A stretch of 31,170 nt of DNA from Actinomycetes bacterium (GCA_031425855.1 JANPKC010000131.1:1-31170), one strand, 5' to 3'; shown: positions 3,658 to 12,290, counted from the stretch's first letter. Translations and numbers: made by a program. Notes: generated by a model not told the origin, from the letters alone.

Positions 3658-4430
3658 AGCGAGCGGTCGATCCAGTCCGGGACGTTCGCGATCGAGCTCA
3701 GCACCGCGTCGGGCACCGTCGACGAGCGGTCGAGCGCCTCTGGCCTGAACTTGCCCGTCCGGAGCAGGAGCGTCTTCATCCCGAAGAGCTGCGCGCCGCG
3801 AACGTCCTGCTCGAGATCGTCGGTGACCATCCACGTCAGCTCCGGCTCGGCGTCGAGCGCCGCGAGGGCGGCGGCGAAGCACGCGGCGCTCGGCTTCCCG
3901 ATCACGGTCGCCTCGACCCCCGTCGCGTACTCGAGCGCGGCGACGAAGGCGCCGCCGTCCAACATCGGCCCCCGAGCGGTCTGCCACCACGGGTTCTTGT
4001 GCAGGCAGAAGAGGTCGGCGCCCGCCTGGATCTCGGAGAACGCGCGGGCGAGGTTCATGTGGCTGAAGACCTGGTTCGGCTCGGTCGTCTCGTCGCAGCC
4101 GCCGACGAGCACGGCATCTGCGCCCTCGCCGACGAGCTCGATCCCGGCGAGGTCGGGCACGATCGCCGACATGACGAGGCCGTAGACGCGCCGCCCGCCG
4201 AGCTCCTCCGCCGCCGCGACCGGGGTCGTCTGCAGCTCGGAGTCTTCGAGCTCGAGCCCCATCTCCCGCAGCTCGGTCGCCAGCTCGGCCCGGGAGCGCG
4301 TCGAGTTGTTCGTGACGAAGCGGAGCCGGTGCCCGTCGGCGCGCAGGCGGGCGATCGCCTCCACGGCACCCGGGATCGGCTCGCCGGAGACGTGGAGGAC
4401 GCCGTCGACGTCCAGCAGAATGGCGGCCAT
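3654..4430 (-). CDS. HAD-superfamily subfamily IIA hydrolase (LHPP/NagD-like)
   Basis: MAAILLDVDGVL (motif I), FVTNNS (motif II), IGKPS (motif III), MVTDDLEQDVRGA (motif IV) and LRTGKF. Start placed at ATG 4430. Confidence 0.88.
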   Translation of the reverse strand: MAAILLDVDGVLHVSGEPIPGAVEAIARLRADGHRLRFVTNNSTRSRAELATELREMGLELEDSELQTTPVAAAEELGGRRVYGLVMSAIVPDLAGIELVGEGADAVLVGGCDETTEPNQVFSHMNLARAFSEIQAGADLFCLHKNPWWQTARGPMLDGGAFVAALEYATGVEATVIGKPSAACFAAALAALDAEPELTWMVTDDLEQDVRGAQLFGMKTLLLRTGKFRPEALDRSSTVPDAVLSSIANVPDWIDRSL

Positions 4431-4839
4431 GGAGCGGGATGCTATCCGGGTGACACGTTCAGTCCTACTGCCTCTCGCCGAGATCGAGCTGCGCTTCTCG
4501 CGCTCGAGCGGCCCGGGCGGCCAGCACGCGAACACGGCGGAGACACGCGTCGAGGCGATCCTGGACATCGACGCGTCGTCGGCCCTGACCGAGGTGCAGA
4601 AGCGGCGCGTGATCGCGAAGGCGGGGCCGACGCTGCGGGCGGTCGCGCAGGACGAGCGGAGCCAGTGGCGGAACCGCGAGCTCGCGGTCGAGCGACTCGT
4701 CCTGCAGCTGCGCGAGGCGTTGAAGGTGGAGCGCCGCCGGGTTGCGACGAAGCCGACCGCGGCGTCGCGCCAGCGGCGGCTCGACGCGAAGAGACGCCGC
4801 TCCGAGGCGAAGCGCCTGCGCCGACCCCCGTCCGAATAG
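4429..4839 (+). CDS. arfB: Alternative ribosome-rescue peptidyl-tRNA hydrolase (YaeJ/ArfB)
   Basis: FSRSSGPGGQHAN (GGQ), QDERSQWRNRELA and a basic C-terminal tail (RRVATKPT...RRLDAKRRRSEAKRLR). Confidence 0.92.
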   Translation: MERDAIRVTRSVLLPLAEIELRFSRSSGPGGQHANTAETRVEAILDIDASSALTEVQKRRVIAKAGPTLRAVAQDERSQWRNRELAVERLVLQLREALKVERRRVATKPTAASRQRRLDAKRRRSEAKRLRRPPSE

Positions 4840-4926: not shown

Positions 4927-6381
4927 GTGGACGTGCTTCGGCTCGCGAGCCTGCTCGAGGAGCTTCCGCCCGAGCGGACGCGGCTGCTCGACAACCTCGG
5001 CCGCCTGCGCCGCGAGGTGGGCCCGATCACGCCGGAGCTCTCGGACGCGCTGGCCGACCGGATGAACCTGCGCCGCGGCGACGTCCACGAGGTCGTCTCC
5101 TTCTACTCCTTCCTGCAGGTGCCGGTCGACGCCGTCCGCGTCTGCACCGGCCCGGTCTGCGACTGCGCCGGCTCGCGCGACCTGCTCTCCGACGCGTCGG
5201 TGGAGGTGCCCTGCCTCGGCCACTGCGACCTCGCGCCGGTCGTCATGCACGGCGACGACGTCCTCGGCGGCGTCACTCACTCCACGAACGGATTCCTGCT
5301 CGAGCCCGACGACGTCCGCGAGCCGCCGCAGCTGACTCAGGACGAGGTGGTCGCACGGCTCGAAGCCGCCGGCCTGGCCGGGATGGGCGGCGCCGGCTTC
5401 CCGACCTGGCGCAAGTGGGACGCAGTGCGCCGCGAGCCGGGCCCGCGCGTCGTGGTGGTCAACGCCGACGAGGGCGAGCCGGGCACGATCAAGGACCGCT
5501 ACGTGATGGAGCTCCGTCCGCAGCTCCTGCTCGAGGGGCTCGAAGCGGCGATGCGCTTCTGCGAGACCGACGGGGCCCACATCTACCTGCGCGAGGAGTA
5601 CGCCACGTCCCGCGCCTCGCTGCAGGACGCAATCGCGGCGCGCGGGCTGCCCGTGCAGCTCGTGATCGGTGCCGGCGCCTACATCTGCGGCGAGGAGACC
5701 GCGATGCTGGAGTCGATGGAGGGCCGGCGCGGGATGCCGCGGCTGCGGCCGCCGTTCCCGGCCCAGTCCGGCTACCTCGGCCGGCCCACGTTGATCAACA
5801 ACGTCGAGACGCTCGCGCACGTCGCCCTGATCCTCCGCGGCGGCTGGGAGCCGTCGCGGCTCTGGTCCGTCTCCGGCGCCGTCGCGAAGCCCGGTTGCTA
5901 CCAGGCGCCGCTCGACATCACGCTTCGCGAGCTGATCGACGGCTACGCGGGCGGGCTCACCGCCGAGCCCGATTCGAGCGGAATCAGCGCGATCGTCCCG
6001 GGCGGCGCCGCGAGCGGGATCCTGCCGCCGGCCGCGCTCGACACGCCGCTCACCCGCGAGGCACTGGCCGAGTGGGGCTGCGGCGTCGGCTCCGCGGCCG
6101 TCCAGGTCTTCCCCGCGAGCTACTCCCCTGTGCGGCTGCTCGCCGAGACGATGCGCTTCTTCGCCGAGGAGTCGTGCCAGAAGTGCACCCCGTGCCGGAT
6201 CGGCAACCGAGCCCTCCATGCCGTCTTCGAGGGAGAGCGGACGATGACGCAGGCGACGATGGACGAGTGGCTGGAGGCGATGACGCTGACCTCGATCTGC
6301 GGGCTCGGCCAGGCGGCGCCGATCCCGGTCCGGAACGCGCTCCGGCACTGGCCGGAGCTCTTCGACAAGATGTCCGCGTGA
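4927..6381 (+). CDS. NAD-dependent formate dehydrogenase diaphorase subunit: fused NuoE-like [2Fe-2S] and NuoF-like FMN/NAD/[4Fe-4S] domains (FdsG-FdsB-like)
   Basis: CTGPVC...CLGHC (thioredoxin-like 2Fe-2S); GMGGAGFPT, NADEGEPG..KDR, GAGAYICGEETA, NNVET, ESCQKCTPCRIG and SICGLG. Confidence 0.88.
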   Translation: MDVLRLASLLEELPPERTRLLDNLGRLRREVGPITPELSDALADRMNLRRGDVHEVVSFYSFLQVPVDAVRVCTGPVCDCAGSRDLLSDASVEVPCLGHCDLAPVVMHGDDVLGGVTHSTNGFLLEPDDVREPPQLTQDEVVARLEAAGLAGMGGAGFPTWRKWDAVRREPGPRVVVVNADEGEPGTIKDRYVMELRPQLLLEGLEAAMRFCETDGAHIYLREEYATSRASLQDAIAARGLPVQLVIGAGAYICGEETAMLESMEGRRGMPRLRPPFPAQSGYLGRPTLINNVETLAHVALILRGGWEPSRLWSVSGAVAKPGCYQAPLDITLRELIDGYAGGLTAEPDSSGISAIVPGGAASGILPPAALDTPLTREALAEWGCGVGSAAVQVFPASYSPVRLLAETMRFFAEESCQKCTPCRIGNRALHAVFEGERTMTQATMDEWLEAMTLTSICGLGQAAPIPVRNALRHWPELFDKMSA

Positions 6382-9068
6382 TCGAGTTCACCCTCGACGG
6401 GAAGCCGGCGAGCGCCGCCGAGGGCGAGCTGCTCGTCGACGCCGCCGCCCGCAACGGCGTCTTCATCCCGACCCTCTGCCACGACGACAAGCTCGACCCG
6501 TACGGCGGTTGCCGGATGTGCGTCGTCGGCGTCGAGGGATCGCCGCGACCGCTCCCCGCGTGCGCCACGCGTGTCGCGGACGGAATGGTCGTCTCCACCA
6601 ACTCGAACGTCCCGCAGCTGCGGCGAACGCTGACGGAGATGCTCCTCTCCGAGCACCTGAACGCCGATCCGGGCGGCCGCCCGAACGAGCTCGCCGAACT
6701 CGCAGAGGAGCTCGGCGCCGAAGCGCCGTTCCTCCTTCCCGACGCGAAGCGCGAGCCGTACGCCGACCGGAACCGGCTGATGGGCTACGAGCCGGACTCG
6801 TGCATCCTCTGCAACCGCTGCGTGCGCTACACGCAGGAGGTGATGCAGTGCTCGGCGCTCTCGCTCGAGGGCCGCGGGCCGGAGGCGCGGATCGTGCCGA
6901 CGTGGGGCAAGAGCTGGCTCGACACCGAGTGCGAGCTCTGCGGGGGCTGCCTCTCGACCTGCCCGACGGGCGCGATCTACGAGAAGTTCCTCGAGGGCGC
7001 CGGCGTCGAGGAGCGCGCCCTCGACCAGGTGAAGACGACCTGCACGTTCTGCGGCGTCGGCTGCCAGCTCGACCTCAACGTCGACCCGGAGACGAAGCGG
7101 ATCGTGAAGGTGACCTCGAAGCCGGAGTACGTCTCGAACGAGGGCAACCTCTGCGTCAAGGGCCGCTTCGCGTTCAACTTCGTGCACCACCCCGACCGGC
7201 TGACCGAGCCCCTGATCCGCGGCGAGGACGGCGAGTTGCACCCGGCCACGTGGGAGGACGCCCTCCACGCCGCCGCCGACGGGCTGAAGGGGGTGATGGA
7301 GCGGCACTCACCGCAATCGGTCGGCGTGCTCAGCTCGGCCCGGCTGACGAACGAGGAGAACTACCTGATCCAGAAGCTCGCCCGGACGGGGCTGCAGACC
7401 CATTCCGTCCACTCGTGCGAGGCCACCTGACACGCTCCCACCCTTTACGGCCTGGTCAGGTCGCTCGGCAGAGGCGCAACCACCAACTCGATCCCCGAGA
7501 TCGAGAACTGCCGCTTCCTGCTCGTGATCGGCTCGAACACGACCGAGGCCCATCCGGTGCTGGCGCTGCGGATCAAGAAGGCGGTGCGAAACGGCGCCAC
7601 CCTCGTGGTCGCCGACCCCCGCGCGATCTGGCTGACGAAGCTCGCGAGGCGCCACCTGCAGCTGCGCCCCGGCTCCGACGTCTGGCTGCTGAACGCGATC
7701 ATGCACGTGATCCTCGAGGAGGGGCTCCAGGACGACGCCTACATCGCGGCGCACTGCGAGGACTTCGAGTCGGTGCGCGAGGTGGTAGCGCGCTACACGC
7801 CCGAGGAGGCCGAACGGGTCACAGGGGTGTCCGCCGACGCCATCCGCGCGACCGCCCGCGAGTACGCGACCGAGCGGCACGCGGCGATCTTCTACACGCT
7901 CGGGATCACCGAGCACGCGTGCGGCGTCGACAACATCTGGTCGCTCGCGAACCTCGTCCTGATGACCGGCCACCTCGGCTACGAGTCGACCGGCCTCAAC
8001 GCCCTGCGCGGCCAGAACAACGTCCAGGGCCTGAACGACTCCGGCGCGAACCCGCACTACTTCCCCGGCTATCAGCCCTGGGACGACCCCGAGGTGCGCG
8101 CGAAGTTCGCGACCGCGTGGGGCGTCGCCCTGCCCGAGCGCGCCGGCTACCGGCTCGACCAGATGATGTCGGGCCTCCACGACGGCCGGATCAAGGCCCT
8201 GTATCTCGTGGGCGAGAATCCGGCCCAGACGGAGCCGAACGCCCACCACGTCGAGGAGGGCCTGCAGCAGCTCGAGTTCCTGGTCGCGCAGGACCTCTTC
8301 CTGAACGAGACCTCGCGGCGGCACGCGAACGTCGTCTTCCCCGCGTCGAGCTTCGCCGAGAAGGACGGCACCTTCACGAACACCGAGCGGCGGATCAACC
8401 GTGTCCGCGCCGCCGTGCCGCTGCCGGGGAACGCGCGCGGCGACCGGGAGATCGTGATCGCCCTCGCCCGTGCGCTCGGCTGCGACTGGCCCGACTACCC
8501 GGACGCGGAGTCGGTCTGGAACGAGCTCGCCGACCTCTGCCCGAACTGGTTCGGCGTTCGCTACCCGCGGCTCGAGGAGCAGGGGATCCAGTGGCCGTGC
8601 CCGACCGAGGATCACCCCGGGACGATGTTCCTGCACGAGGGCCACCCGTCGCTGCCCTCCGGCAAGGGCAAGTTCCACCCGGTCGAGTACCAGCCGCCGA
8701 TCGAGGAGCCCGACTCGGAGTACCCGTTCGTCCTCTCGACCGGCCGGACGCTCTACCACTACAACTCCGCGGGTATGACGATGCGCGAGGACGGGATCAC
8801 CGACAAGCAGGTGGATCCGTTCTTCGAGATCGCGGCCGAGGATGCGTCCGCCCTGGGCGTGAGCGAGGGAGATTGGGTGCGGCTCGTCTCCCGGCGCGGC
8901 GACCTGACCGCCCGCGCGAAGCTCTCCGAGCGTGTCTACCCCGGTCTCGTGTGGATGGCGCTCCACTTCGCAGAGGCGCGCGTGAACTGGCTCACGCACG
9001 ACGTCGGCGACCCGCTGATCGGGACGCCGGAGTACAAGGTGTCGGCGGTCAGGCTCGAACGGCCGTGA
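6378..9068 (+). CDS. fdhA: Selenocysteine-containing Mo/W-bisPGD formate dehydrogenase alpha subunit (896 aa with UGA read as Sec)
   Basis: GTG overlaps the upstream stop. ORFs 5415..7430 and 7524..9068 are in one frame, and the only stop I found between them is TGA 7428-7430. Context SCEAT-U-HAPTLYGL aligns with FdhF-type CARV-U-HGPS. Also CTFCGVGC...LCVKG, LRGQNNVQG, AEKDGTFTNTERR, STGR and PEYKVSAV. Confidence 0.9.
7431..7463 (+). promoter_or_regulatory. Bacterial SECIS element
   Basis: Stem CGGCCU (7448-7453) / AGGUCG (7458-7463) with a GGUC loop starting 24 nt after the UGA. The segment uses codons otherwise rare here (GCU, CUU, AGG, AGA). Confidence 0.75.
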
Positions 9069-9763
9069 TCGGCTCGCCGCGTCGACACGTCGCGGAGTGC
9101 GAGTCGACACAGCTCCTGCTCGGTCCGGACGATCCCGAGGGCGCGGTCGCGACCACCGACCACCAGACCGGCGGACGCGGCCGGCGGGGACGGACCTGGG
9201 TCGAGGCGCCCGGGACGTCGGTGCTCGTCTCGGTGCTCCTGCGCCCGCCCCCGGAACGGCTCGCGCCGCAGCTCTCCCTCCTGGGTGGGCTCGCGGCGGC
9301 GATGGCGGCCGAGGAGGCTCTGGGGCTCGCGGCGCAGATCAAGTGGCCGAACGACGTCATGGTCGACCGGCGCAAGGTCGCGGGCGTGCTCGCGGAGGCG
9401 AGGGACGGCGTCGTCGTGCTCGGGATCGGGCTGAACGTGAACCAGACGCGCGAGCAGCTGCCCGCCGACGCCCGCGTGGCCGCGGCGTCGCTGCGGACGA
9501 TCGACGGTCGCGAACGAGAGCGCGAGCAGCTGCTCACGTCGGTGCTCGCGCAGCTCGACCGGCTCTACGGCGCGTGGCGGCAAGCCGGTCTCGAGGCCGT
9601 CTACGAGGATCTCGGCGCGCGCGACTTCCTCCGCGGCCGCCGCGTCACGGTCGACGGCGTCGCCGGGACGGCGCAGATGATCGTCCGCGACGGCCGGCTC
9701 GCGGTCTCGACGAGCTCAGGCCTGGTCGTCGTCGAGAGCGGCGAGGTCACGTTCGAGCGCTGA
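9065..9763 (+). CDS. birA: Biotin--[acetyl-CoA carboxylase] ligase (no N-terminal HTH)
   Basis: GTGA-coupled to the FDH alpha gene. Motifs QTGGRGRRGRTW, IKWPNDV, KVAGVLAE and GIGLNV. Confidence 0.9.
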   Translation: MIGSPRRHVAECESTQLLLGPDDPEGAVATTDHQTGGRGRRGRTWVEAPGTSVLVSVLLRPPPERLAPQLSLLGGLAAAMAAEEALGLAAQIKWPNDVMVDRRKVAGVLAEARDGVVVLGIGLNVNQTREQLPADARVAAASLRTIDGREREREQLLTSVLAQLDRLYGAWRQAGLEAVYEDLGARDFLRGRRVTVDGVAGTAQMIVRDGRLAVSTSSGLVVVESGEVTFER

Positions 9764-10258
9764 GAGCTCCGCGGGCGTGTTCGCGTTCGCGAGCAGCCGC
9801 GGGTCGGCCTCGAGCACTCGCGGATTGACGCCGCGGAGCGACCAGTCGCCCGACGCGAGGCGTCGCTCGAGCTCCGGCAGGTCGTCCTTCGCGTAGGCGC
9901 CCGGCAGCGGTCCCGTCTGCGTGACGGCGCGGCGCTCGCCGAGCTCGCGCAGCAGGCCGGGTGTCACGAGCGGGCAATCGACGGGCAGGAAGACGGACGT
10001 CTCGGTCGCGGCCGCACGAAGCCCCGCGATCACCCCGGCGAGCGGCGCCTGCGGCTGCGCCGGCTCGACGACCACGTCGAAGGGCAGGTCGAGCTCTCCC
10101 TTCCCGACCGCGAGCCGGAAAGGGAACGCCTCACCCAGCGTCCGCCACGCCCGCTCGCCGAGCGCCTCGCTGCCGAAGCGCGCGAGCGCCTTCGGCGACC
10201 CGAAGCGCGTCGACGCCCCGCCGACGAGCAGGACGCCCGTTACCGCAGGATCCGCCAC
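9716..10258 (-). CDS. mobA: Molybdenum cofactor guanylyltransferase
   Basis: GVLLVGGASTRFGSPKAL, PLAGVIAGL, PVDCP, PLPGAY and LANANTPAEL. Next to fdhD. Start GTG 10258 inferred. Confidence 0.85.
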   Translation of the reverse strand: MADPAVTGVLLVGGASTRFGSPKALARFGSEALGERAWRTLGEAFPFRLAVGKGELDLPFDVVVEPAQPQAPLAGVIAGLRAAATETSVFLPVDCPLVTPGLLRELGERRAVTQTGPLPGAYAKDDLPELERRLASGDWSLRGVNPRVLEADPRLLANANTPAELSALERDLAALDDDQA

Positions 10259-11016
10259 GCCTCGGTGTAGACGTTGAGCGAGCCGTCGCGGACGAAGCCG
10301 CAGAGGGTGATTCCGCGATCGGCTGCGAGCTCGACCGCGAGCGACGACGGCGCGCCCACCGCCACGAGCAGCGGGCACCCCGCGACGGCCGCCTTCTGGA
10401 CGAGCTCGAAGGAGAGCCGCCCGCTGACGCACAGGATCGAGCCCGACAGCGGCAACAGCCCGTCGAGGAACGCGCGGCCGAGCACCTTGTCGAGCGCGTT
10501 GTGACGGCCTACGTCCTCGCGGAGGCAGAGCAGCTCGCCGCTCGCCGTGAAGAGACCGGTCGCGTGCAGGCCGCCGGTCGCCTCGAACGCCGCCTGCGCA
10601 CTCCGGAGGCGATCGGGCAGCGTCGCGACGAGCCCGGCGGGGACGCGCAGGTCGCTCTCCACCCGCGGCGCCTCGACGGCGACCGCCTCGAGAGCGCCCT
10701 TGCCGCACACACCGCAGGAGGACGAGGTGTAGAAGCTCCGCTGCAGGCGGCCGACGTCTGCTCCGGGAGCGTCGACGTCGACCGTGTTAGCGGCGAGGTC
10801 GTCGGGCACCCGGGCTGCGACCGGGCGCAGCCCCTCCGAGAGGCAGAAGCCCAGCGCGAGCTCCTCGTCGTGCCCCGGGGTGCGCATCGTCACCGCGACC
10901 GGCGTGCCGCCGATCCGGATCTCGAGCGGCTCCTCGACGGCGACGAGGTCGCCCTCCTCGCCGCCCGGCACCCGCGTCACGCGCACGCGTGCGGTGCTGT
11001 AGGCGGGCGCTTCCAC
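10240..11016 (-). CDS. fdhD: Formate dehydrogenase accessory sulfurtransferase
   Basis: EEPLEI, TMRTPGHDEELALGF, SSCGVCGK, TGGLHA, EDVGRHNALDK and SGRLSFELVQKA. Start GTG 11016 lies 7 nt after a TACTGT -10 box. Confidence 0.93.
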   Translation of the reverse strand: MEAPAYSTARVRVTRVPGGEEGDLVAVEEPLEIRIGGTPVAVTMRTPGHDEELALGFCLSEGLRPVAARVPDDLAANTVDVDAPGADVGRLQRSFYTSSSCGVCGKGALEAVAVEAPRVESDLRVPAGLVATLPDRLRSAQAAFEATGGLHATGLFTASGELLCLREDVGRHNALDKVLGRAFLDGLLPLSGSILCVSGRLSFELVQKAAVAGCPLLVAVGAPSSLAVELAADRGITLCGFVRDGSLNVYTEAWRILR

Positions 11017-11072
11017 GGTGGCAACAGTACCGCGCAGGTTTTCCACAGGTCCGGTGTCTCAATTGTTAGGAA

Positions 11073-11448: not shown

Positions 11449-11655
11449 ATGGTCGAGCGTATCGAGCGGATCCGGGGGGACCGCCTGCAGCGCTGGAGCG
11501 TCTATGCGGCAACGCCGTTCCTCTGGCTCGCGCTCGCGCTGCTCAACCCGTTCCTGCTCCTCGTCCCGGCGCTGATCACAGTGGCGATCTGGAAGGCGAT
11601 GGAGTACGGGATCGTCGACCGGCACGACCCGCCGGACGACCCCGACTTCTACTAG
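11449..11655 (+). CDS. Small hypothetical membrane protein
   Basis: MVERIERIRGDRLQRWSVYAATPFLWLALALLNPFLLLVPALITVAIWKAMEYGIVDRHDPPDDPDFY has a long hydrophobic core. Alternative TTG start at 11438 overlaps the upstream stop. Confidence 0.65.
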   Translation: MVERIERIRGDRLQRWSVYAATPFLWLALALLNPFLLLVPALITVAIWKAMEYGIVDRHDPPDDPDFY

Positions 11656-12290
11656 CTCGCGCCCGCAGCTTCGAGGATCGCGGCGATCTTGTCGTGACCG
11701 CCGCGACGCGCGTGCTCGAGCGGCGTCACTCCCTCCCGGTCGGCGATGTCCACGCCGGCGCCCGCGCCGACGAGCAGCCGGACGATCTCCTGATGCGGAG
11801 CGCCGCCCTCGCCGAGGAGAACGGCCTCGAGCAGCGCCGTCCAGCCGAGATCGTTGACGTGGTCGATGTCGATCGACGTTTCGAGGAGCTCTCGCACGAC
11901 GCCGACGTGACCCCGGTCGGCCGCCGGGATCAGCGCGGTGCCGCCGAAGCGGTTCGTCCGGGTCAGGTCGGGCTCTGCTCGCAGCACCTCGTGGAGCACG
12001 GCCACGTTCCCGGTCTCCCCGGTGGCGAGGAGCGCGTTCGCCCGCGAGTCGTCCTGGAGATCGACGTCGGCGCCGGCGTCGACGAGGACGCGCACGGCGG
12101 CGGCGGAGCCTCCGTAGGCGGCGGCGGTCACGGCCGTCCGGCCGCCCGGGCCACGATCGTCCACTGCCGCGCCGCGCTCGAGCAGCCGCACCACCGCCTC
12201 GACCTCGCCGCGTCCCGCGGCCGCCGCGAGCTCCCCGGCCGCAGGCCTGTCGCCGTCACCACAACCGCCGACGGCGAGCACCAGGAGCAC
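11652..12290 (-). CDS. Ankyrin-repeat protein (YahD-like), possible lipoprotein
   Basis: Repeated GRTAVTAA, ANALLAT, GGTALIPAADRGH, GWTALLEA and GVTPLEHA units. N-terminal LVLAVGGC lipobox-like motif. Confidence 0.8.
   Translation of the reverse strand: MLLVLAVGGCGDGDRPAAGELAAAAGRGEVEAVVRLLERGAAVDDRGPGGRTAVTAAAYGGSAAAVRVLVDAGADVDLQDDSRANALLATGETGNVAVLHEVLRAEPDLTRTNRFGGTALIPAADRGHVGVVRELLETSIDIDHVNDLGWTALLEAVLLGEGGAPHQEIVRLLVGAGAGVDIADREGVTPLEHARRGGHDKIAAILEAAGAS

What the first reader, a model, noticed from the sequence alone, without database searches (positions are those of the whole stretch)
6378..9068. Hidden selenoprotein: FDH alpha subunit with in-frame UGA and SECIS
Seen: a single in-frame TGA at 7428-7430, followed by His and a 6-bp hairpin with a GGUC loop, with intact coding frame on both sides. 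Established: Mo/W FDHs use Cys or Sec as the metal ligand followed by His, and the E. coli fdhF SECIS has a GGUC apical loop bound by SelB. FdhD and MobA maturation genes are adjacent. Automated pipelines would split this gene or call it a pseudogene. Sec use is uncommon in Actinobacteria, so an NAD-linked Sec-FDH in this probable lineage is notable. The loop sits about 5 nt further from the UGA than in E. coli.
Basis: partly seen in the sequence, partly recalled or inferred. Interest (0 to 1): 0.75.

Follow-up and report, generated by a model that had tools for sequence, protein, structure and literature searches.

The report
Selenocysteine formate dehydrogenase gene, Gaiellaceae
The apparent stop codon inside this formate dehydrogenase gene of an uncultured soil/sediment actinobacterium almost certainly encodes selenocysteine. 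This is the commonest kind of bacterial selenoprotein, so the finding is real but ordinary.

Summary
One in-frame TGA (7428-7430) interrupts an otherwise open 897-codon frame (6378-9068, +). It is followed by His and by a 6-bp hairpin with a GGUC loop (7448-7463).

The TGA sits at the Mo/W-ligand column. It aligns with Cys386 of Rhodobacter capsulatus FdsA. The protein passes the NCBIfam formate dehydrogenase alpha equivalog cut-off.

All 84 orthologues examined carry TGA at this column. All are from Gaiellaceae/Gaiellales MAGs, at 75-95% amino-acid identity. The 18 nt that contain the hairpin are identical in every one, wobble positions and a rare AGG codon included. This is the longest codon-invariant run in the gene.

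The same genome holds selA, selB, selD and tRNA-Sec (UCA). It also holds a second UGA-containing gene, MerB-like, with its own GGUC hairpin.

The claim that Sec is rare in this lineage is not supported. SelA was found in 48 of 52 family genomes, 206 of 301 class genomes and 268 of 401 phylum genomes sampled. This scan has noted Sec formate dehydrogenases about 750 times on other DNA.

The one local peculiarity is the position of the recoding hairpin. In this clade it lies 5 nt further downstream than in E. coli fdhF and in sister Thermoleophilia families. It sits beside a remodelled active-site loop.

Verdict: a real, new member of a known kind, of low interest.

The parts
4927..6381 (+). Beta (diaphorase) subunit. 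An N-terminal NuoE-like thioredoxin-like [2Fe-2S] domain is fused to a NuoF-like FMN/NAD(H)-binding domain and a 4Fe-4S domain. Its stop overlaps the GTG start of the alpha gene (GTGA).
   Evidence: Pfam PF01257, PF01512, PF10531 and PF10589. The best solved relative is the beta subunit of the tungsten NAD-dependent FDH1 of Methylorubrum extorquens, 7e5z_B, E 1.9e-94 over residues 6-481. The gene is present upstream of the alpha gene in 76 of 80 orthologous loci.
6378..9068 (+). Formate dehydrogenase alpha subunit, 896 residues with Sec351. It has an FdsA/Fdh1A-type architecture: 2Fe-2S, Nqo3-like ferredoxin, Fe4S4, molybdopterin and MGD-binding domains.
   Evidence: Translation with TGA=U. 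Pfam domains. NCBIfam TIGR01591 Fdh-alpha equivalog scores 763 bits against a cut-off of 666. The closest solved structures are R. capsulatus FdsA 6tg9/6tga, E 7e-198 over residues 2-893.
7428..7430 (+). UGA codon 351, read as selenocysteine. This is the Mo/W ligand position, followed by His352 (7431-7433).
   Evidence: It aligns with Cys386 of R. capsulatus FdsA, with the Cys of T. kivui FdhF and with 'X' of the F420-dependent FDH 9t1s_L. TGA is present in 81/81 sequences and in four further orthologues at 75-78% identity.
7448..7463 (+). bSECIS hairpin: CGGCCU / GGUC loop / AGGUCG. The spacer from UGA to the loop is 23 nt.
   Evidence: Fold. All six pairs and the loop are invariant in 63 distinct 66-mers. 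All four constraints of the published bSECIS model are met.
7446..7472 (+). Zone of suppressed synonymous change. Codons 357-362 (TAC GGC CTG GTC AGG TCG) are identical in all 81 sequences. GGC364 is kept in 80/81 and AGA365 in 79/81.
   Evidence: Codon-entropy scan. AGG361 and AGA365 are two of only four AGR codons among 63 Arg codons in the gene.
8007..8009 (+). Codon of Arg544 in LRGQNNVQG, the catalytic arginine of formate dehydrogenases.
   Evidence: It aligns with Arg333 of E. coli FdhH (1aa6) and Arg587 of R. capsulatus FdsA.
9716..10243 (-). MobA-like molybdenum cofactor guanylyltransferase. The start is approximate.
   Evidence: Pfam PF12804. NCBIfam MobA models hit below their cut-offs. 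The gene is conserved next to the FDH gene in 63 of 80 loci.
10240..11046 (-). FdhD, the sulfurtransferase that matures the FDH molybdenum cofactor.
   Evidence: Pfam PF02634 at 217 bits. NCBIfam NF001943 scores 277.6 bits against a cut-off of 269. The gene is conserved in 62 of 80 loci.

Best explanation
Positions 6378-9068 are one intact gene for the catalytic alpha subunit of a two-subunit, cytoplasmic, probably NAD(H)-linked Mo/W formate dehydrogenase. The enzyme is of the FdsA/Fdh1AB type, in a Gaiellaceae bacterium.

What is shown here by sequence:
- The UGA, its position at the ligand column, its conservation, and the hairpin.
- The synonymous constraint on the hairpin.
- The presence of the Sec machinery in the genome.

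What is inferred from the E. coli system:
- During translation, SelB carrying Sec-tRNA(Sec) (anticodon UCA) binds the GGUC-looped hairpin at 7448-7463 while the ribosome sits at UGA 7428-7430.
- This inserts selenocysteine 351, which ligates the metal of the bis-MGD cofactor next to His352. Arg544 completes the active site.
- Electrons pass through the Fe-S chain of the alpha subunit to the FMN of the NuoE/NuoF-type beta subunit (4927-6381) and on to NAD+.
- FdhD and MobA, encoded next door, mature the cofactor.
For: - Single in-frame TGA followed by His, in an otherwise open 897-codon frame.
- Family membership: TIGR01591 scores 763 bits against a cut-off of 666. R. capsulatus FdsA is the best solved relative.
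- The UGA aligns with the metal-ligand Cys/Sec of solved FDHs. The catalytic Arg is present.
- TGA is present in all 81 sequences, and in four more at 75-78% identity, from different species-level MAGs.
- Amino-acid identity is as high downstream of the UGA (median 80%) as upstream (82%). The 31 codons between the UGA and the next possible start are the best-conserved stretch, with 68% invariant columns.
- The hairpin codons are the longest codon-invariant run in the gene, and rare AGG/AGA codons are fixed there.
- All four bSECIS model constraints are met.
- The own genome holds selA (431 bits), selB (N-terminal part 243 bits, C-terminal winged helix 52 bits), selD (353 bits) and tRNA-Sec with UCA (55.6 bits against gathering score 47).
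- All 24 other family genomes that have the TGA orthologue also have SelA. The four family genomes without SelA show no TGA orthologue.
- A second gene in the same genome (MerB-like) has a conserved UGA at a catalytic-Cys column and a 7-bp GGUC-looped hairpin. Both observations point to a working Sec system that recognises this loop.
- An independent DNA run bridges the UGA. So do contigs from three metatranscriptome libraries, though these are related sequences at 85-95% likeness. No variant at 7428-7430 appears among the listed differences.
Against: - There is no direct evidence of selenium incorporation or of the full-length polypeptide. The organism is known only as a MAG.
- The hairpin is invariant within the clade, so it shows no compensatory changes.
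- Its folding energy is not better than that of shuffled sequence (z 0.57).
- No Rfam family matches it.
- The loop lies 5 nt further from the UGA than in the E. coli element, where spacing is known to matter (my knowledge of the E. coli literature, not tested here).
- The assembly is fragmented. selB is split over two contig ends, and the Sec genes are on other contigs of a binned genome with 1.5% estimated contamination.
- NAD linkage and the choice between Mo and W are inferred from homology only.
Confidence: 0.93

Rival explanations
1. The UGA is a true stop. The locus would then encode two polypeptides: an N-terminal Fe-S module of 350 residues, and a catalytic module restarted at GTG 7524 that lacks the ligand residue. 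This would be a naturally split formate dehydrogenase.
For: Table 11 gives two ORFs. Split FDH genes exist in other lineages according to earlier notes of this scan, which I did not check.
Against: The 31 codons between the UGA and GTG 7524 are the most conserved part of the protein. They include the catalytic His352. The stop lies exactly at the ligand column. The hairpin shows synonymous constraint. The Sec machinery is present and co-occurs with the gene.
Confidence: 0.02
2. The TGA is a sequencing or assembly error for TGC/TGT, or a recent nonsense mutation that makes the gene a pseudogene.
For: None beyond the presence of the stop itself.
Against: TGA is found in 85 of 85 orthologous sequences from independent assemblies, and in 25 of 25 family genomes that have the orthologue. 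Purifying selection acts on both sides of it. A second DNA run bridges it with no listed variant there.
Confidence: 0.005
3. The UGA is read through, but not, or not only, as selenocysteine. It could be read as Cys or Trp by near-cognate decoding or by Cys loaded on tRNA-Sec. The conserved hairpin would then serve another purpose, such as pausing or mRNA stability.
For: No direct selenium evidence exists. The hairpin spacing differs from the canonical E. coli spacing.
Against: The complete dedicated Sec pathway is present. The loop has the same four letters, GGUC, as the E. coli fdhF SECIS loop and as the hairpin after the second UGA gene of this genome. The column is the classical Cys/Sec column. 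Sister families carry an E. coli-like covarying hairpin after the same codon.
Confidence: 0.04

Closest known systems
E. coli formate dehydrogenase H (FdhF, Sec140) and its fdhF SECIS
   Same: The Sec-His dipeptide is at the metal-ligand column and the catalytic Arg is present (R333 = Arg544 here). The recoding hairpin lies directly downstream, inside the coding frame, with the same GGUC loop letters. The protein scores 502 bits against 1aa6.
   Different: - The protein here has an extra ~215-residue N-terminal 2Fe-2S/ferredoxin module.
- It pairs with a NuoE/F-type subunit rather than with hydrogenase 3.
- The loop lies at nt 27-30 after the U of UGA instead of nt 22-25.
- The stem sequence is unrelated, and there is no counterpart of the bulged U17.
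- The loop before Sec reads HSCEAT-U, not the D-x-CAR-x-(U/C) seen in the solved FDHs and the sister families.
Rhodobacter capsulatus FdsGBACD NAD+-dependent formate dehydrogenase (FdsA, PDB 6TGA/6TG9)
   Same: This is the best full-length solved relative of the alpha subunit, E 7e-198 over residues 2-893 with the same domain order. An FdhD-type maturation gene lies nearby.
   Different: - R. capsulatus uses Cys386 where this protein has Sec.
- It has a separate FdsG subunit and an FdsD, whereas here the NuoE-like domain is fused to the beta subunit.
- No FdsG or FdsD gene was seen in the locus.
Methylorubrum extorquens tungsten-containing NAD-dependent FDH1 (Fdh1AB, PDB 7E5Z/7VW6)
   Same: It has the same two-subunit layout. 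The beta subunit with fused NuoE-like and NuoF-like parts is the best solved relative of 4927-6381 (E 1.9e-94). The alpha subunit matches at E 7e-182.
   Different: The alpha subunit there matches the query, which was sent with C at residue 351, without an X at the ligand stretch (table). I take it from my own knowledge, not from an alignment shown here, that its ligand is Cys. The metal of the present enzyme is unknown.
Sec-containing FDH alpha genes of sister Thermoleophilia families (loci L094-L110)
   Same: They belong to the same class and have the same domain architecture, at 42-46% identity. They carry one TGA at the same column followed by His.
   Different: Their hairpin is E. coli-like: GU[G/C]GCC-GGUCU-GGC[C/G]AC with the loop at nt 22-26, with compensatory G-C/C-G changes between families. 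Their active-site loop is the usual DHCAR[T/L]-U-H. The Gaiellaceae clade has neither feature.

Membership tests
Mo/W bis-MGD formate dehydrogenase alpha subunit (NCBIfam TIGR01591, Fdh-alpha equivalog) | Whole-protein score above the curated equivalog cut-off | tested here: met
   763 bits against a cut-off of 666.25, residues 220-892 on profile positions 1-671.
Mo/W bis-MGD formate dehydrogenase alpha subunit (NCBIfam TIGR01591, Fdh-alpha equivalog) | Cys or Sec metal ligand followed by His at the active-site column | tested here: met
   U351-H352 aligns with C386-H387 of R. capsulatus FdsA and with the C/X-H of three other solved FDHs.
Mo/W bis-MGD formate dehydrogenase alpha subunit (NCBIfam TIGR01591, Fdh-alpha equivalog) | Catalytic arginine (FdhH R333) | tested here: met
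   Arg544 in LRGQNNVQG aligns with R333 of 1aa6 and R587 of 6tg9.
Mo/W bis-MGD formate dehydrogenase alpha subunit (NCBIfam TIGR01591, Fdh-alpha equivalog) | Fe4S4 domain plus molybdopterin and MGD-binding domains | tested here: met
   PF04879, PF00384 and PF01568 all score above their gathering thresholds.
Mo/W bis-MGD formate dehydrogenase alpha subunit (NCBIfam TIGR01591, Fdh-alpha equivalog) | Formate oxidation / CO2 reduction activity | not testable with these tools
   This needs an enzyme assay. The adjacent FdhD gene is circumstantial support.
Bacterial selenoprotein gene with bSECIS (consensus model as given in PMC13188914, Fig. 2A) | Apical loop of 3-9 nt on an upper stem of 4-16 bp | tested here: met
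   4-nt loop on a 6-bp stem.
Bacterial selenoprotein gene with bSECIS (consensus model as given in PMC13188914, Fig. 2A) | G in the first two loop positions, usually G[G/U] | tested here: met
   The loop is GGUC.
Bacterial selenoprotein gene with bSECIS (consensus model as given in PMC13188914, Fig. 2A) | [quoted passage not shown] | tested here: met
   23 nt (7431-7453).
Bacterial selenoprotein gene with bSECIS (consensus model as given in PMC13188914, Fig. 2A) | MFE of -7.5 kcal/mol or lower | tested here: met
   -7.6 kcal/mol for the 20-nt hairpin and -13.7 for the 51-60 nt after the UGA. This is marginal for the bare stem, which gives -6.5.
Bacterial selenoprotein gene with bSECIS (consensus model as given in PMC13188914, Fig. 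2A) | Sec-decoding machinery in the same genome (selA, selB, selC, selD) | tested here: met
   All hits lie above the curated cut-offs. selB is split across two contig ends.
Bacterial selenoprotein gene with bSECIS (consensus model as given in PMC13188914, Fig. 2A) | Cys/Sec pair with homologues, and TGA-containing orthologues in other organisms | tested here: met
   TGA in 85 orthologues. Cys forms occur in relatives at 46-48% identity and in solved structures.
Bacterial selenoprotein gene with bSECIS (consensus model as given in PMC13188914, Fig. 2A) | SelB binding to the hairpin and Se in the protein | not testable with these tools
   This needs EMSA, a reporter, 75Se labelling or mass spectrometry.
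E. coli fdhF-type SECIS in the strict sense | GGUC-type loop with G23/U24 at fixed spacing from the UGA (loop at nt 22-25) and a bulged U in the upper stem | tested here: not met
   The loop letters are the same, but the loop lies at nt 27-30 and the 6-bp stem has no bulge. Sister families do meet the spacing. The element therefore works like an fdhF SECIS but is not a positional homologue of it.

The most novel reading that the evidence does not exclude
The Gaiellaceae enzyme may be a distinct Sec-FDH subfamily. On this reading the recoding hairpin was rebuilt 5 nt downstream, out of register with the ancestral E. coli-like element that sister families keep. At the same time the active-site loop changed from DHCAR(T/L)-U-H to HSCEAT-U-H, losing the Arg two residues before Sec. 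If so, one SelB in this organism serves GGUC loops at two spacings, 19 nt in the MerB-like gene and 23 nt here. The altered second-sphere residues might also change the catalytic properties, such as oxygen tolerance or bias toward CO2 reduction, of an NAD-linked selenium enzyme in a lineage whose cultured members are aerobes (the last point is my knowledge, not tested).
Probability: 0.25. Interest if true: 0.45.

Novelty: new member of a known kind. Interest (0 to 1): 0.2.

Why it matters
For annotation, the gene should be called as one 896-residue selenoprotein and not as two fragments or a pseudogene. The same applies to its orthologues across Gaiellaceae MAGs. The lineage should also be scored as a selenium user.

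For biology, the finding adds little. Formate dehydrogenase alpha is the most widespread bacterial selenoprotein, with 822 organisms listed already in 2016 (PMC5029168). The Sec trait turns out to be the rule in this family and class.

Two modest points are worth keeping:
- The displaced hairpin, compared with the E. coli-like hairpin in sister families, is a natural example of SECIS turnover at a fixed Sec codon.
- The second, MerB-like, selenoprotein suggests that the selenoproteome of these abundant soil actinobacteria is larger than FDH alone.

Tried and rejected
- **Rfam:** permissive thresholds over 7350-7560 found no RNA family for the hairpin.
- **Folding energy:** it gives no support. 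The z-score against shuffles is 0.57.
- **ARAGORN:** it missed tRNA-Sec and reported only a spurious 97-nt 'tRNA-?' on C137. Infernal with RF01852 found the real one on C240.
- **Lower helix:** a possible helix pairing nt 7-11 with nt 46-50, and an extension of the stem, show no compensatory change. Pair 9:48 is standard in only 56% of distinct sequences. I do not claim them.
- **Genome-wide TGA screen:** my first screen for in-frame TGA was too strict and missed the FDH itself. The relaxed screen gave 33 candidates.
- **Screen candidates discarded:** the candidates on C161, C292, C126, C132 and C106 translate to wrong-frame-looking, low-complexity products. The remaining candidates were not examined one by one. 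The selenoproteome count of two is therefore a lower bound.
- **Public gene calls:** a look-up of the 514-residue C-terminal ORF found nothing on record. I could not check how public pipelines called this gene.
- **Reads:** only Logan contigs were available. They cannot show expression level, strand or transcript ends. 212 differences were not listed, so 'no variant at the UGA' holds only for the best-supported ones.
- **Literature:** searches for selenocysteine with Gaiella or Thermoleophilia returned only incidental co-mentions.
- **Unannotated ORFs:** window ORFs 9049-9537 (-), 8936-9715 (-) and 9097-9828 (+) have no Pfam or NCBIfam match.
- **Searches not run:** I did not run the large protein-database searches, structure prediction or complex prediction. 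Their answers would not have changed the verdict.


Full report
**1. The observation**

The frame is an 897-codon frame opened by GTG 6378, which overlaps the stop of the upstream gene in GTGA. It has one internal TGA at 7428-7430, CAC (His) as the next codon, and a terminal TGA at 9066-9068. A plain ORF caller breaks the frame at 7430 and restarts it at GTG 7524.

The hairpin is CGGCCU (7448-7453), GGUC (7454-7457), AGGUCG (7458-7463). It appears in both the minimum-energy and the centroid fold.

**2. What the protein is**

- Pfam finds 2Fe-2S, Nqo3-like ferredoxin, Fe4S4, molybdopterin and MGD-binding domains in the order typical of FdsA-type enzymes.
- The NCBIfam formate dehydrogenase alpha equivalog TIGR01591 scores 763 bits against a cut-off of 666.
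- The closest solved structures are R. capsulatus FdsA (6TG9/6TGA, E 7e-198, residues 2-893) and the tungsten FDH1 alpha subunit of Methylorubrum extorquens.
- Residue 351 aligns with the metal-ligand Cys386 of R. capsulatus FdsA, with the Cys of the T. kivui HDCR FdhF, and with an 'X' in an F420-dependent FDH.
- Arg544 aligns with the catalytic Arg333 of E. coli FdhH and Arg587 of FdsA.

The upstream gene (4927-6381) is a fusion of NuoE-like and NuoF-like parts. Its best solved relative is the beta subunit of M. extorquens FDH1. The enzyme is therefore most likely a two-subunit, NAD(H)-linked FDH, though this link is inferred from homology only.

FdhD and a MobA-like gene lie convergently downstream. 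The beta, FdhD and MobA genes accompany the alpha gene in 76, 62 and 63 of 80 orthologous loci respectively.

**3. Is the UGA real and conserved?**

A scan of one genome per species returned 80 orthologous loci at 78-95% identity, all titled Gaiellaceae, Gaiellales or unclassified actinobacterial MAGs. All 81 sequences have TGA at the column. So do four more orthologues at 75-78% identity.

In a sample of 301 genomes of the class, 25 of 25 family genomes with the orthologue show exactly one TGA. Sequencing error and recent nonsense mutation are therefore excluded.

Protein identity to the window is the same upstream (median 82%) and downstream (80%) of the UGA. The 31 codons between the UGA and the next possible start are the most conserved segment. 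This argues against a split gene.

**4. Is the hairpin more than chance?**

The fold energy alone says nothing (z 0.57), and no Rfam model matches. The codon-level comparison is decisive.

- Of 512 alignment columns with a conserved, degenerate amino acid, only 8% use one codon in all 81 sequences.
- The longest run of such columns in the whole gene is the six codons TAC GGC CTG GTC AGG TCG (7446-7463), which contain the hairpin.
- The Arg codons AGG361 and AGA365 are rare. Only four of the 63 Arg codons in the gene are AGR, yet these two are fixed or nearly fixed.
- A GGUC tetraloop on at least 6 bp occurs at about 3e-5 per position in this genome. This gives about 7e-4 for the window allowed after a given UGA.
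- The element meets all four constraints of the consensus bSECIS model as summarised in PMC13188914.

Because the stem never varies within the clade, there is no covariation there. The function is inferred from position, loop identity and synonymous constraint.

**5. Sec machinery**

The window's genome has 355 contigs, 2.69 Mb, 71% GC, 90% completeness and 1.5% contamination. It holds:

- selA on C241 (431 bits);
- the start of selB immediately after it (243 bits against a cut-off of 242), and the SelB C-terminal winged helix at the end of C270;
- a Cys-type selD on C350 (353 bits);
- a tRNA-Sec with anticodon UCA on C240 (55.6 bits against gathering score 47).

All 24 other family genomes with the TGA orthologue also have SelA. 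The four family genomes without SelA have no TGA orthologue among the listed matches.

**6. A second selenoprotein in the same genome (outside the window)**

A screen for in-frame TGA with coding-like flanks and a G-first loop gave one further convincing case, C295:4689-5363.

- It is a MerB-family protein (PF03243, 108 bits).
- It scores below the cut-offs for MerB and for the known MerB-like selenoprotein SaoL.
- Its UGA aligns with the conserved catalytic Cys of MerB2 (5C17).
- The UGA is kept in 20 of 21 family matches at 41-60% identity. Two of those genomes, G323 and G332, are unpublished.
- It is followed by a 7-bp hairpin with the same GGUC loop at nt 23-26, with variation between loci that keeps the pairing.

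This supports a working Sec system that reads GGUC loops.

**7. How it compares with the known elements**

I verified the E. coli fdhF SECIS letters against 5,419 E. coli genomes. Its GGUC lies at nt 22-25.

Sec-FDH genes of three other Thermoleophilia families (42-46% identity) have an E. coli-like element at that very position. It reads GU[G/C]GCC-GGUCU-GGC[C/G]AC, with compensatory G-C/C-G exchanges between families, and the usual DHCAR(T/L)-U-H loop.

The Gaiellaceae clade has instead the hairpin 5 nt further on, built from different codons (L-Y-G-L-V-R-S instead of V-A-G-L-A-T-T). It also has an HSCEAT-U-H loop. It is still well inside the 16-37 nt range of the general bacterial model.

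**8. Is it notable for the lineage?**

No. SelA was found in 48/52 family genomes, 206/301 class genomes and 268/401 sampled Actinomycetota genomes of at least 90% completeness. That last sample includes six unpublished genomes: G347, G391, G429, G458, G637 and G712.

By my hand count, about 115 of the 150 best FDH-alpha matches in the class carry one TGA.

FDH alpha is the most widespread bacterial selenoprotein (PMC5029168; PMC13188914). This scan has already noted the same kind of thing about 750 times in more than 550 genomes, including a soil actinobacterial case. I found no paper that mentions selenoproteins specifically in Gaiellales or Thermoleophilia, so the clade itself is a new member.

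**9. Reads**

An independent freshwater-sediment DNA run and contigs from three soil or rhizosphere metatranscriptome libraries bridge the UGA. The latter are related sequences at 85-95% likeness. Among the listed differences none falls on 7428-7430 or on the hairpin. Because these are contigs, this is only weak support for transcription.

**10. Verdict**

This is a genuine selenocysteine codon with its recoding hairpin in an FdsA/Fdh1A-type formate dehydrogenase gene (confidence about 0.93). It is a new member of a well-known kind and of low interest. The displaced SECIS, the remodelled active-site loop and the MerB-like second selenoprotein are the only points that go beyond routine re-annotation.

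Noticed in passing
Own genome, contig C295:4689-5363 (+) = L114:890-1564, Sec codon at L114:1343-1345 (outside the window): A second candidate selenoprotein. It is a MerB-family protein (PF03243, 108 bits) with an in-frame TGA at the column of the conserved catalytic Cys of MerB2 (5C17). A 7-bp hairpin UUCCUCC-GGUC-GGAGGAG follows. The TGA is kept in 20 of 21 family matches; two of those genomes (G323, G332) are unpublished. The protein scores below the NCBIfam cut-offs for MerB and for the known selenoprotein SaoL, and its motif is F-T-U-S rather than SaoL's C-U.
   Followed up: partly
window 7398-7433: The active-site loop before Sec reads H-S-C-E-A-T-U-H in all 85 clade members. Solved FDHs and the Sec-FDHs of sister Thermoleophilia families read D-x-C-A-R-x-(U/C)-H, so the Asp and the Arg are replaced here. 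The functional consequence is unknown.
   Followed up: partly
L094-L110 (sister Thermoleophilia families): Their Sec-FDH genes carry an E. coli fdhF-like SECIS at the canonical spacing (loop GGUCU at nt 22-26). The stems alternate between GUGGCC/GGCCAC and GUCGCC/GGCGAC, which is clean compensatory change. Two loci of the sample (L111, L112), listed with one TGA, show Cys at this column, so their TGA lies elsewhere. I did not look into this.
   Followed up: partly
window 9049-9537 (-): A 162-codon ORF lies between the FDH alpha gene and mobA and overlaps the alpha gene's last 20 nt. It is conserved at up to 81% identity in 56 of 80 orthologous loci but has no Pfam match. Overlapping frames (8936-9583 -, 9097-9828 +) also give hits, so the true frame is not settled.
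   Followed up: partly
window 4306-4839 (+): An RF-1-domain protein (ArfB-like peptidyl-tRNA hydrolase, PF00472) lies directly upstream of the FDH beta gene. It overlaps the HAD-hydrolase gene on the other strand and is conserved in 45 of 80 loci. I found no evidence that it is linked to Sec decoding.
   Followed up: no
Own genome, contigs C240, C241, C270, C350: tRNA-Sec lies near the start of the 1.8-kb contig C240. selA is followed by the start of selB at the end of the 3.3-kb contig C241, and the end of selB lies at the edge of C270. SelD on C350 has Cys, not Sec, in its SGGCAAK motif. The Sec genes sit on short contigs, which suggests an assembly break in this region.
   Followed up: partly
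window 11652-12290 (-): An ankyrin-repeat protein (PF12796 and related families) lies between the FdhD region and glmS. Such proteins are uncommon in bacteria.
   Followed up: no
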